In this document: piece after piece, positions 12,001 to 64,000 of the stretch
Numbering within the stretch: the stretch's first letter is position 1
Layout of the letters: every line of letters begins with the position of its first letter
Assembly (NCBI RefSeq): GCF_902652985.1
Contig: NC_047024.1
Span: 35,216,001 to 35,280,000, forward strand
Length of the DNA: 64,000 bases
Direction: 5' to 3'
Source: Pecten maximus
Taxonomy: Eukaryota
Program-made: the position numbers

Positions 12001-15000
12001 AACGAAGTCAGGAAAGTTCCTTCACCCACAGGCGTCTGCCTCTGGTTGGTATTTTTTAAAAACGTAAGCCTGTACTCTTACTGTATCAACGTTGATATAG
12101 TAGGAATAGGGGACTGGTCTTTTTTTTCTATTAATACTAACCTGAGGCAGACGCCTGTGGCTGAAGGAACTTTCCTGACTTCGGTGGTCAAAGATATGCA
12201 CTGACCCTAAGTGTTCAATTTCTCCTATTAACACCATTGTTGAACATTTTTAAGGCAAACTTACAATCTGAGCCATTATCAAAATCGTGTTGAATAATAT
12301 TATTTTTTCCAGATTGGAAAGGCGTGCAAACCATTCACACTGATTTCCTCACGTTATACAACTTAAGCTATATAACCGAAGCATTCAATTCCGTTCAAAT
12401 ATAATACAGCTCATGCTCTTTCGTTGCCAGCATTAACACGAACTAATACTGTAAGTATTTGGCTATAAAATATACCAGAGTGCGCTTCATGAAACGACCA
12501 AATATAAAAAAGAATCATTGAATTTCGTATTGGTTGAAATCGTGAGAATAATTGAATTTAACATTGGATAAAATCGAGAGAATGATTGAATTTCATATTG
12601 ATTTCTGATGAGCTATATTTACTAAGTTTGGGGGAGATTTTTAGGTGATATCAAAACATGGGACTTGGACCTTACCAAATACTTCAATTTCATCTTAAGA
12701 TATATTGATGATACCTCTTTTTAAAAAGTTTGGTTTACTATTGTTTAACGTCATATCAACAGCGAAGATCATTTAAGGACGGTCTTTAAATAACAAAATA
12801 AAAATGCTAACTACGTTGATTGGATATAAAAAACCAATTACCCTAGAATATTTTTAAGACTATCATAGTGTTTCACAGAAAAGTGTAACAGAAAGAAACC
12901 CAGACGCATGCAAAAGTGGATATCTTGCGGCTATTATTTTGAAAAAATTATCAAAATATTGGCCCCACTCATGAAATATATTTTGTATTACTGAAGACAC
13001 TGTTAGAATATTCATAATACCTGTGGGCACAATAGGAAAGTTTTCAAGAAGAGAAACACGAATCAGAATACGAGGATGCGATTTCTCCAACTGTGTCGTT
13101 GATTCGTGGAATTCCACCGTCTTTAGTCATGGCACTAACTTTGTATACCATTAACACCATCCAGGATGTAATATGGCAGGAAATGACCGGAAGTCAGCAC
13201 CAGTAATTAACGGTGAGTTACGGTGAGTAGATATTCTGTTTATTACATTTTACAGCAAAACATACCGGGTCAGGTTTTATGTTTCCCATTGTCCTTTGTA
13301 AGCAGTGTTTTGATTGGTCAAATCAGAAAATTAAAATATCAGACAGAGTGATATGTTTCACTAGTGAAATATATCACTTTTTTACTGGTAAAAATGTAAT
13401 AACTATTAACTACCACGGTAGTTCGTCAGAAAAACTTGAAATGACATTAAAAACAATTCTATCTGTGTGTTTTACATGGTGTGTATAGTAAACATTGTAA
13501 ATAGTAAGAAATATATTTTGTTTTAAAAGTTTTTAATTCGTAGTAATGCACAAACTCAACCATGTGTTTTATAAATAAATAGTTCTTTTTACATTAGTTT
13601 CATGTGAATTTGTTCCGATCATGGGTCACCCGAGATGACAACATTATCTCGAACTACAGGTCTAGGTTTCCGCGTGACTTTCTGTAGGTTCCACGCGTAG
13701 TTGTACTTAGTTAACGTATCTAGTTTCGACTGATGTCTCTTGGGTACCAATGCTCGCCTTACAAAAACCTTACATCCATTCTCTACTACAGACCTGATTT
13801 GGTTTAGGAGACGTTTCTTCCCTCCATGGAGAAGATCGCACTCCCAATCGCTAGTGTTAGCTTTCCCGGGAACAGTCCGTGAATATACCACATGGCGCTT
13901 TCCCCGGGTCTTCGTTTGCACAGCTAACTCATACAACGCTGTTTTCCGTGATTGGTCATTGAACAGCTGTTTACGTTTCAAACATTTGCAGCCGAATTTT
14001 GTAATGAAGGCTCGTTTTGAACTTGGTTCAAATGCGTTGACTGGAGTGTATGCAAGACGCCATGTTGACCAATCTAAACGGCTGCACGTGAAAGAAGAGC
14101 TTGCGACTTTCTCTCTATGTATGGGTTGTAAGTCTGCCTTACACCTAACGTTTACCTGGAAGAAAAAAATGTAGTTTCTTAAAAATGTATGTCCAGTGAT
14201 TGTTAGTAACTAATTTCCCAATACATACCTGTTAAAAAAATGTTTCCCTTGGCAGGAAATATAAACATATTCGTATATTGGAGTTAAAATTTCCTCCTTT
14301 TATAAGATTGGTTTGCTGGTAATGCAATGGAGTTTACACCAATAGTGTACAGTAGCTCTTTGCTTTTTACATTTGATAAAAATGTAAAATAGTGTATTCC
14401 TATGAAAGACAATCACCCTGTTTTGTCCCTATGAAAGACAATTACCCTGTTTTGTCCCTATGAAAGACAATTACCCTGTTTTGTTTTTATGAAAGAAAAT
14501 TACCATATTTTGCTCCTATGAAAGACAATTGCCCTGTTTTGCTACTATGAAAGACAATCACCCTATTTTGTTTATATAAAAGACAATTACCCTGTTTTGT
14601 CCCTTTGAAACACAATTACCCTATTTTGCTTCTATGAAAGACAATTACCCTGTTTTGTTCCTATGAAAGACAATTACCCTGTTTGTCCCTTTGAAACACA
14701 ATTACCCTATTTTGCTCCTATGAAAGACAATTACCCTGTTTTGTAACTATGAAAGACAATCACCCTATTTGTTCCTATGAAAGACAATTACCCTGTTTTG
14801 TCTCACAATTGGCTTTAGTTTGGTCAGTGGTGAAGACTTTTCTTTCACAGTCAGTTTATTTTGACGGCTTCTTGGTAATTGTTTTTGCGATGAAGATGGC
14901 ACTTTTCTTTTCTTTATTTTCGGACTAGTGACTGTGGATATAGATGGCACAGGTACAGGATTTGATGATGTTGTACTATAATAGCTCGCCCCTGATTCGT

Positions 15001-63000: not shown

Positions 63001-64000
63001 TACCTTGTTTCCTTGGTGGTATGGCCAGAGGACTTCTGGGTAAACACAGCTCCATACAGGCGAGACAGAAACGGGGCGAGGCACTCAAAGAGGCTGATGT
63101 TGTTATCATGGCAGGTAAGACTGCTAAAAAATAATATGATATATACTGTAAATCAAAGTAAATTATTTAAGACACAAATAATGTACATAATCATTAAGAC
63201 AGGAAAGAATACTGAAAGTAATGTCATATAAATTTATCAACATGCTAGTAGACATAAGTAACATCAAGGTAGGTAGGACAAAGTCTGGAAAATCTACACA
63301 TATACCTACAGGAAATACATCCACAATTAACATTCTAATCAAGGCAGGTAGGACTACAGAAAAATAACATTGTATAAATTAATATGTTTTAGGGGTAAGG
63401 ACGAAATACATACTGCCACAAATAATATAATCATGCCTGGTAGGACTCAATGATAATGTCATGTATAGAGGAAATCGAAGCATGTGTGAAAAATATCAAA
63501 ATATTCTGTCATATGAGTGAAATATATGTTTTATTAAACAGGAAACCATTCAATTTTGTTTTTATTGCATTTTGAAAACAAAATTAAAAACATCGAAAAA
63601 TCAATAGTGTCAAAAAGTGCGGGAATCAGTAACATAATTCATGATGTTATCTCTTTGTGGCGTTACTCCACGTCAACTTGACGGCAACATTTTGAAAGGA
63701 CTTATCAACGCAATTTAAGCGTTTTCTGCTGTTATCGGAGAATCTATGCATGAATAGCTAACGTGAAGTGATTATTTTGTCAAAAAAATAGTCTGAATAT
63801 TTCAGAAATACAGCAAAATAACCAATTTATCTATCTTCGTTTGAATTGGAAAAATCAATGATGTGAATACAAAGGTTCGCTCTGATTGGGCAAAAATGAA
63901 AAACATATGTTCACTGCAAAATCTGATATTTTCACTGCTCATCGCTGCAGTGAAAATACAAGATTTATTAGTATCATCGATAAATTTCTTTATTGCATTT

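What the first reader, a model, noticed from the sequence alone, without database searches (positions are those of the whole stretch)
14398..63450. Recurrent pattern: tandem arrays seeded exactly on 5' splice-site junctions in five introns of three genes
Seen: VWA exon 3 (29 bp x about 14), ZNF143 exon ending 33576 (20-24 bp x about 20), ILVBL exon 4 (42 bp x 9), exon 6 (about 70 bp x 4) and exon 10 (degenerate). In each case the unit is exon end plus GT donor plus intron start, the array extends only into the intron, and the units are unrelated to each other. I saw no equivalent array at any acceptor. Inference: a mutational mechanism biased to donors, or selection tolerating only this geometry; either way it creates banks of decoy U1 sites.
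Basis: partly seen in the sequence, partly recalled or inferred. Interest (0 to 1): 0.7.

Follow-up and report, generated by a model that had tools for sequence, protein, structure and literature searches.

The report
Intron minisatellites that copy splice donors
In three king scallop genes, short tandem repeats at the start of an intron each began as a duplication spanning the exon-intron boundary, so the splice donor is repeated many times; this architecture is already known from a few human genes, and here it is unusually clustered.

Summary
The window is Pecten maximus DNA: one exon is 100% identical to RefSeq LOC117336410. Homology-anchored models of three genes (VWA-domain gene, ZNF143/76-like, HACL2/ILVBL) give 25 donors, all GT, and 24 acceptors, all AG. 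Four donors carry clear tandem arrays whose unit is exon end + GT + intron start: VWA exon 3 (29 bp x14), ZNF exon 6 (24 bp x11), HACL2 exon 4 (42 bp x9) and HACL2 exon 6 (72 bp x3.7). HACL2 exon 10 has only a decayed relic. No acceptor has one (0 of 24). The arrays are not seeded exactly on the junction: they start 4, 10, 18 and 39 nt inside the exon. Units are local and unrelated. About 0.2-0.9 donor-spanning arrays are expected by chance and 4 are seen (P about 0.005 to 7e-5, uncorrected for how the window was picked). The donor/acceptor asymmetry alone is not significant (P = 0.05-0.125). The architecture is in print for human F7, IFI6, CBS, LMNB2 and PDGF, where only the most upstream donor is used. 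Best reading: random local duplications that are tolerated because the first donor wins. This is a new member of a known kind; a genome-wide donor bias remains untested.

The parts
14792..15085 (-). VWA-domain gene (P. maximus LOC117336410) exon 3; donor GT at 14791/14790
   Evidence: tblastn of RefSeq protein P0151 maps four blocks at 98-100%; the protein joins ...IVRQNR|VNVRCK...; junction bases read; GT/AG check
14397..14801 (-). 29-bp x14 minisatellite filling 62% of intron 3. The first unit is the last 10 nt of exon 3 plus the first 19 nt of the intron. 12 of 13 downstream copies keep GT and 8 of 13 have the authentic 9-mer AGGGTAATT.
   Evidence: TRF; copies at +28...+375
33576..33677 (-). 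ZNF143/76-like gene exon 6; donor GT at 33575/33574
   Evidence: tblastn of P0121: residues 291-324 end ...GVVNSI and residue 325 resumes at 32103; junction
33082..33579 (-). 24-bp (45-bp higher-order) minisatellite at the start of intron 6. TRF core is 33320-33579, with degenerate copies down to about 33082. Only 4 nt (CATA) of exon lie in the unit. There are 8 downstream GTRAG sites.
   Evidence: TRF; offsets +24...+493
58833..58911 (+). HACL2/ILVBL exon 4, ending ...VTAGPG; donor GT at 58912-58913
   Evidence: tblastn of P0009, P0033 and P0004: the homologue continues GPG|LTNTV at 59432; junction
58894..59271 (+). 42-bp x9.0 minisatellite filling 69% of intron 4. The unit is the last 18 nt of exon 4 plus the first 24 nt of the intron. 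8 of 8 downstream copies are perfect CAGGTAAGT. Copy 6 is identical to copy 1.
   Evidence: TRF
60064..60202 (+). HACL2/ILVBL exon 6, ending ...SGTPG; donor GT at 60203-60204
   Evidence: exon 74-98% identical to the 120 listed HACL2 proteins; the homologue continues PVFVEF at 60698
60164..60420 (+). About 72-bp x3.7 decayed minisatellite. The unit is the last 39 nt of exon 6 plus about 30 nt of intron. Downstream donors: +71 CTGGTAAAG, +137 CAGGTAAGG; the last copy has lost GTAAG.
   Evidence: TRF
62991..63114 (+). HACL2/ILVBL exon 10; donor GT at 63115-63116
63100..63460 (+). Relic of an about 79-nt repeat that contained the exon 10 donor. The core ATCAwGGCAGGTArGAC recurs near 63203 (GT lost), 63273, 63348 and 63440.
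   Evidence: one 30-mer copy with 6 mismatches; alignment A1; all 3 GGTAGGAC of the window lie here; not found by TRF at score 30 or by gapped blastn

Best explanation
These are ordinary intronic minisatellites that arose independently by local tandem duplication, then grew by slippage or unequal exchange. In each case the founding duplication happened to span an exon-intron boundary, so every unit carries the exon's last 4-39 nt, the GT donor and the first 19-30 nt of the intron. They persist because the mRNA is unchanged. The spliceosome uses the most upstream donor, which is the authentic one, and the downstream copies are silent pseudo-sites removed with the intron. The mirror-image duplication across an acceptor would put a complete extra 3' splice site upstream of the real one. 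That site would be met first, the mRNA would gain junk, and such alleles would be purged. That would give a donor-only pattern without any donor-specific mutation process. Shown here: the geometry, the exon-to-intron direction of copying, intact pseudo-donors, and first-copy use in the annotated or homology-supported mRNAs. Inferred: that first-donor preference and acceptor intolerance operate in scallop as they do in mammalian cells.
For: Geometry and junctions.

Direction of copying: the exon parts of the first units encode residues conserved across molluscs (...VTAGPG...LQIAQSGTPG), so the intron copies derive from the exon.

Variable array start (4, 10, 18 and 39 nt into the exon) is what random breakpoints would give.

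Local, unrelated units: 0 hits outside each unit's own array for 5 of 5 units.

Different ages: 94%, 83%, 74-82% and 73% matches, plus a relic.

Higher-order pattern in the HACL2 intron 4 array, with copies 1 and 6 identical, is typical of unequal exchange.

First copy used: RefSeq P0151 joins QNR|VNV; the Argopecten proteins run straight from the first donor copy into the next exon.

Non-junction intronic arrays occur at the background density: 0.22 per kb against 0.27 per kb in the rest of the window.

Precedent and mechanism: PMC1557585. The first 37-bp monomer in F7 IVS7 is the last 4 bp of exon 7 plus 33 bp of intron. The pseudo-sites are functional but only the most upstream is used. The same paper lists IFI6, CBS, LMNB2 and PDGF, and states that 3' splice-site scanning is widely accepted.
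Against: A purely neutral tolerated-duplication model predicts only 0.2-0.9 donor-spanning arrays among those in this window, and 4 (5 with the relic) are seen. So either the window is a selected outlier or something further favours donors.

The donor 9-mer varies less than the rest of the unit by cell counts: 0 of 81 against 13 of 297 cells, P = 0.08; 5 of 126 against 27 of 266, P = 0.047. This hints at constraint on the pseudo-sites.

First-donor use in HACL2 and ZNF143/76 rests on proteins of another scallop, not on P. maximus transcripts.

The globin duplicated-site experiments cited for polarity were contradicted by another group, as the Discussion of PMC1557585 itself says.

The acceptor side of the argument has no direct support in this window beyond 0 of 24.
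Confidence: 0.7

Rival explanations
1. A mutational process tied to the 5' splice site itself makes donors hot spots for tandem duplication. Candidates are transcription- or spliceosome-linked breakage, or microhomology between the donor consensus and nearby cryptic donors.
For: Excess over the neutral expectation: 4 observed against 0.91, 0.82, 0.40 or 0.21 expected. Three of the five cases lie in one gene.
Against: Array starts are not anchored: 4, 10, 18 and 39 nt of exon in the unit. Periods differ (24-79 nt), units share only the consensus and ages differ. The arrays do not fold better than shuffles, z = +1.19 and +0.14, so no hairpin-driven slippage is apparent.
Confidence: 0.1
2. The reiterated donors are kept by selection. 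They could serve as a bank of U1-binding sites (protection from premature cleavage, or splicing efficiency), as back-up donors, or as alternative donors making in-frame isoforms.
For: 8 of 8 downstream donors in HACL2 intron 4 are perfect CAGGTAAGT, and use of +42 or +84 would add 14 or 28 residues in frame without a stop. In ZNF, +24 and +69 are also in frame without a stop. The donor 9-mer is less variable than the rest of the unit by cell counts. Arrays are in excess at donors.
Against: By variable columns the conservation is not significant. HACL2 e4 has 0 of its 6 variable columns in the 9-mer, with chance about 0.21 by my calculation. VWA has 3 of 9 motif columns variable against 10 of 19 elsewhere. 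The ZNF comparison is biased because copies were chosen by their GTRAG. Older arrays have let donors decay: GC in one VWA copy, GTAAG deleted in the last e6 copy, GA at e10 +88. All 13 VWA pseudo-donors and most of the others would bring in a stop. In F7 the pseudo-sites are silent.
Confidence: 0.12
3. There is no donor bias at all. The cluster is a look-elsewhere fluke of a minisatellite-rich genome with short introns, picked because it looks striking.
For: 13.9% of intronic 30-mers (2436 of 17478) already lie in local repeats. The introns are short (median about 540 nt), so any array has a 2-24% chance of touching a donor. The donor/acceptor contrast is not significant (P = 0.05-0.125). The window was selected post hoc from an unknown number of windows.
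Against: P = 0.005 to 7e-5 within the window. Five independent events of different ages all fall on the donor side. The same donor-side geometry is the only one reported for the five human genes listed in PMC1557585.
Confidence: 0.15
4. The introns themselves were created by tandem duplication of exon sequence containing AGGT (the Rogers model of intron gain).
For: Units contain exon sequence and AG|GT. Tandem-duplication intron gain is documented in other organisms (PMC4974935 and PMC2891723, search listing and abstract starts only).
Against: Every unit also contains 19-30 nt that is not exon sequence, and each intron has a unique 3' part. Unnamed mollusc ORF calls leave the HACL2 protein sequence exactly before GRGALQ and after SGTPG (P0002, P0005, P0011), so the introns flanking exon 6 are old.
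Confidence: 0.02

Closest known systems
Human F7 intron 7 (IVS7) 37-bp VNTR minisatellite with 5' pseudo-sites (Borensztajn et al. 2006, PMC1557585)
   Same: It is a tandem array at the 5' end of an intron whose first monomer spans the exon-intron boundary (last 4 bp of exon plus 33 bp of intron, as in the ZNF143/76 case here). The authentic donor is followed by several identical donors, and the normal mRNA uses the most upstream one.
   Different: Different organism, genes and unit sequences. Here the exon share reaches 39 nt, one array carries perfect-consensus donors (F7's are weaker, TGG/gtgggt), and three cases lie in one gene. Splicing outcome and copy-number polymorphism are untested here.
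Junction-spanning minisatellites of human IFI6 (6-16) intron 2, CBS intron 13, LMNB2 and PDGF intron 4, as listed in the Introduction of PMC1557585; the original papers were not seen (PMC306954 is not held)
   Same: The first monomer spans an exon-intron boundary and reiterates the donor. Units of 81-100 bp are also known, comparable to the 72-79 nt units here.
   Different: In IFI6 and CBS the two nearest pseudo-sites are also used. Whether that happens at HACL2 +42/+84 or ZNF +24/+69 is unknown.
Intron gain by tandem genomic duplication (Rogers model; PMC4974935 and PMC2891723, listing and abstract starts only)
   Same: A tandem duplication containing AG|GT, with splicing that restores the original mRNA.
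   Different: There the duplication creates a new intron out of exon sequence. Here pre-existing introns were lengthened, and the units include intron sequence.
Intronic 5' splice-site-like sequences as U1 binding sites (telescripting, decoy sites); recalled from general knowledge, no paper read here
   Same: Many consensus 5' splice sites lie inside an intron.
   Different: Nothing here shows U1 binding or any effect on cleavage, retention or expression.

Membership tests
Junction-spanning intronic minisatellite (F7 IVS7 type, 5' pseudo-site array) | Head-to-tail tandem array of a 10-100 bp unit inside an intron | tested here: met
   TRF: 29 bp x14, 24 bp x11, 42 bp x9 and 72 bp x3.7. Not met by the exon 10 relic.
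Junction-spanning intronic minisatellite (F7 IVS7 type, 5' pseudo-site array) | First monomer spans the exon-intron boundary | tested here: met
   Exon ends against array starts: 10, 4, 18 and 39 nt of exon inside the first unit.
Junction-spanning intronic minisatellite (F7 IVS7 type, 5' pseudo-site array) | Donor sequence reiterated downstream (pseudo-sites) | tested here: met
   GT is kept in 12 of 13 (VWA), 8 GTRAG sites (ZNF), 8 of 8 (HACL2 e4) and 2 of 3 (HACL2 e6) downstream copies.
Junction-spanning intronic minisatellite (F7 IVS7 type, 5' pseudo-site array) | Normal mRNA made from the most upstream donor | tested here: inconclusive
   The RefSeq protein of the same species supports it for VWA. 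For HACL2 and ZNF143/76 only proteins of Argopecten and other molluscs do. No transcript reads were available, and the cluster look-up for P. maximus isoforms could not be made.
Junction-spanning intronic minisatellite (F7 IVS7 type, 5' pseudo-site array) | Copy number polymorphic in the population (VNTR) | not testable with these tools
   Only one haplotype, this window, is available.
Intron created by tandem duplication (Rogers model) | Intron consists of duplicated exon sequence only and is absent in relatives | tested here: not met
   Units include 19-30 nt of non-exon sequence and each intron has a unique 3' part. The exon 6 boundaries are shared with other molluscs.
Array carried by a dispersed element (MITE, Helitron or satellite-bearing transposon) | Copies of the unit elsewhere in the genome | tested here: not met
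   0 hits outside each unit's own array for 5 of 5 units, within the 64-kb window only. The rest of the genome could not be searched.

The most novel reading that the evidence does not exclude
In the king scallop, and perhaps in bivalves generally, minisatellites are strongly and specifically enriched on 5' splice sites: 4-5 of 25 donors here, against a handful of anecdotal genes in human. Under this reading the enrichment goes beyond what tolerated random duplication predicts, because a donor-linked mutational process or selection for multi-U1-site introns drives it. Some arrays, such as HACL2 +42/+84 and ZNF +24/+69, would supply in-frame alternative donors.
Probability: 0.2. Interest if true: 0.6.

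Novelty: new member of a known kind. Interest (0 to 1): 0.33.

Why it matters
Arrays of identical donors are natural experiments on how the spliceosome picks one 5' splice site among equals, and the F7 array was used for exactly that. Scallop would offer several such arrays, with weak to perfect donors and with 4-39 nt of exon context, in a protostome where the polarity of splice-site choice has not been tested. If the density seen here (16-20% of donors) held genome-wide, it would raise a real question about how minisatellites are born or kept at donors. There are two practical points. These arrays are likely VNTR markers inside genes, and they are traps for gene prediction because open frames run from the exon into the array.

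Tried and rejected
(1) Exon 10 as a true array: TRF at score 30 found nothing and gapped blastn missed it, so it is kept only as a relic.

(2) Structural masking of pseudo-donors: folds of both well-preserved arrays are no better than shuffles, z = +1.19 and +0.14.

(3) Selection on pseudo-donor motifs: the trend by cells is not significant by columns.

(4) Other arrays of the window as hidden junction arrays: none of the 15 other arrays shows an exon-end-plus-donor seed. Unannotated UTR exons cannot be excluded.

Four unnamed mollusc ORF calls were looked at, and only P0005 runs past the donor, for 21 residues, which is less than one unit, so this was uninformative for arrays.

(7) Literature: five searches found the human cases but no genome-wide donor-versus-acceptor survey and no bivalve report. 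The passages of PMC10078293 read give no positional statistics. Its supplements, which I could not see, may hold distances of repeats from splice sites. PMC306954 is not held. PMC3618361 and PMC12771815 added nothing.

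Full report
ORIGIN AND GENE MODELS. The window has no N. It is AT-rich (34-50% GC). It comes from the king scallop Pecten maximus: an ORF holding the first VWA exon is 100% identical to RefSeq 'uncharacterized protein LOC117336410 [Pecten maximus]' (P0151), and that 487-aa protein maps back in four blocks at 98-100%. It is not human. Exons were searched one at a time. The joined step, searching with a spliced full-length model, was left out.

Full-length named relatives were mapped with tblastn. 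Argopecten irradians HACL2-like P0009 gives ten coding exons on the + strand, 54631 to 63114, and the gene runs off the window. Argopecten ZNF76-like P0121 gives thirteen exons on the - strand, 36824 to 26516. Reading the junctions gave a model with 25 donors, all GT, and 24 acceptors, all AG.

THE OBSERVATION. TRF lists 49 rows that collapse to 19 distinct arrays. Eight lie in introns of the three genes, and four of these touch a donor:
- 14397-14801: 29 bp x14, VWA exon 3, exon end 14792.
- 33320-33579: 24 bp x11 with a 45-bp higher order, ZNF exon 6, exon end 33576.
- 58894-59271: 42 bp x9, HACL2 exon 4, exon end 58911.
- 60164-60420: 72 bp x3.7, HACL2 exon 6, exon end 60202.

In transcript orientation each unit is exon end + GT + intron start. 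Two systematic tests over all 49 junctions agree. With ungapped 30-mers (at most 8 mismatches), 5 of 25 donors and 0 of 24 acceptors have copies in the adjacent intron. With gapped blastn requiring the hit to span the junction, the counts are 4 of 25 and 0 of 24; every query also gave one trivial self-overlap hit, which I set aside. In 13 of 25 introns no 30-mer at all has a local copy, so such copies are not background noise.

The fifth case, exon 10, is not an array by TRF even at score 30. However, all three GGTAGGAC sites of the whole window lie 155-325 nt downstream of its donor. Five segments of about 79 nt align around a core ATCAwGGCAGGTArGAC. I read it as an old, decayed array.

The arrays are not seeded exactly on the junction. 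They begin 10, 4, 18 and 39 nt inside the exon. In ZNF only CATA is shared with the exon.

CHANCE. If each of the eight intronic arrays is slid at random within its own intron, allowing up to one period of overlap with either exon, 0.91 donor-spanning arrays are expected. Four are seen, P = 0.005. With pooled introns, P = 0.003. Using the density of the 15 non-donor arrays and their mean or median period, 0.40 or 0.21 are expected, P = 7.5e-4 or 6.7e-5. Without the four donor arrays, introns carry 0.22 arrays per kb, against 0.27 in the rest of the window, so the donor arrays are an excess over background. Two cautions apply. These P values are not corrected for the window having been picked because of the pattern. 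The donor/acceptor contrast alone is weak: sign test 0.125 (4:0) or 0.0625 (5:0), Fisher 0.11 or 0.05.

ANATOMY.
- The units are strictly local: 0 hits elsewhere in the window for 5 of 5 units. They share only CAGGTAAG-type consensus.
- The exon parts of the first units encode residues conserved across molluscs, so copying went from exon into intron.
- Ages differ: 94%, 83%, 74-82% and 73% matches, plus a relic.
- The HACL2 intron 4 array has a higher-order pattern, and its sixth copy is identical to the first.
- The arrays fill 62%, 69% and 44% of VWA intron 3, HACL2 intron 4 and HACL2 intron 6.
- Pseudo-donors are largely intact. In VWA, 12 of 13 keep GT and 8 of 13 equal the authentic 9-mer. 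ZNF has 8 downstream GTRAG sites. In HACL2 e4, 8 of 8 are perfect CAGGTAAGT. In HACL2 e6, 2 of 3 keep GT.
- Coding consequences: using HACL2 +42 or +84, or ZNF +24 or +69, would add residues in frame without a stop. All VWA copies and the more distal copies elsewhere bring in a stop.
- The donor 9-mer is less variable than the rest of the unit by cell counts (0 of 81 against 13 of 297; 5 of 126 against 27 of 266). Copies share ancestry, and by variable columns the effect is not significant.
- Neither well-preserved array folds better than shuffles.

WHAT IS KNOWN. Borensztajn et al. 2006 (PMC1557585; abstract, passages and the whole Discussion read) describe exactly this. [quoted passage not shown] Their examples are F7 IVS7 (37 bp; last 4 bp of exon 7 plus 33 bp of intron), IFI6/6-16, CBS IVS13, LMNB2 (100 bp) and PDGF intron 4 (81 bp). 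With 50 minigene constructs they showed that the F7 pseudo-sites are functional but only the most upstream one is used. They call scanning widely accepted for 3' splice sites. They also note that early duplicated-site experiments in globin gave conflicting results. Five literature searches found no genome-wide survey of donor against acceptor and no bivalve report.

MECHANISM. The most likely sequence is as follows. Local tandem duplications with random breakpoints occur in a minisatellite-rich genome with short introns. Those spanning a donor leave the mRNA unchanged because the first donor is chosen. They are then free to expand. Those spanning an acceptor place an extra 3' splice site ahead of the real one and are purged. 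Those inside exons are purged as well. The geometry, the direction of copying and first-copy use in the annotated models are shown. The polarity of splice-site choice in scallop is inferred from mammalian work. A donor-anchored mutational process is disfavoured by the unanchored boundaries. Selection for banks of U1 sites is not excluded but has only a weak trend in its favour. Intron creation by duplication is contradicted by the anatomy and by shared exon 6 boundaries in other molluscs.

WHAT STAYED OPEN. Three things could not be checked: whether the excess over the neutral expectation holds genome-wide, whether any pseudo-donor is used (the look-up of P. maximus isoforms could not be made), and whether related scallops share the arrays (no eukaryotic DNA collection was available; the closed collections were not used).

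VERDICT. This is a real, well-defined feature and a new set of members of a known kind. It is clustered enough to justify a genome-wide test, but by itself it is not evidence for a new mechanism.

Noticed in passing
window 41822-47613: A 5.8-kb satellite of a 33-bp unit (174.8 copies, 84% matches) with strong G-over-C skew (+0.46 to +0.67). It lies between the 5' end of the ZNF143/76-like gene and an LTR retrotransposon.
   Followed up: no
window 47957-53418 (ORF 48521-52660, +): A young LTR retrotransposon with 300-nt direct repeats that are 100% identical, 5162 nt apart, and an intact 1380-aa ORF. The Pfam domain order is zinc knuckle, protease, integrase, then RT and RNase H. That is a copia-like order built from gypsy-type domains. 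From memory this resembles the Gmr1-like group of gypsy elements; that is not tested here. The 22-bp x10 array at 52691-52917 lies inside the element, between the ORF and the 3' LTR.
   Followed up: partly
window 54767-55622: A near-perfect long inverted repeat in HACL2 intron 1: arms 54767-55117 and 55271-55622, 99-100% complementary, 153-nt spacer. It starts only 11 nt after the exon 1 donor. It is foldback- or MITE-like, and its effect on splicing of intron 1 is unknown.
   Followed up: partly
window 26015-26364: A 62-bp x5.4 array (93% matches) about 150 nt downstream of the ZNF143/76-like stop codon, probably in the 3' UTR. Its units contain GATGTAAGG on the gene strand but it is not at a known junction.
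   Followed up: partly
window 6079-8079 (-): A single 667-aa open frame with RING, B-box and NHL matches, which makes it a TRIM-like protein. A 12-bp x4.9 array follows at 5903-5960, just downstream of the frame.
   Followed up: no
window 1-4490 (-): Retroelement remains (RT thumb and RNase H matches at 1-774; CCCH zinc finger ORF at 1389-2807) and a GDSL-lipase-like ORF at 3870-4490.
   Followed up: no
window 19565-20265, 21293-21864, 27037-27705: Three arrays with long units (277, 104 and 157 bp), one of them in ZNF intron 12. They look like internal repeats of dispersed elements rather than local duplications.
   Followed up: no
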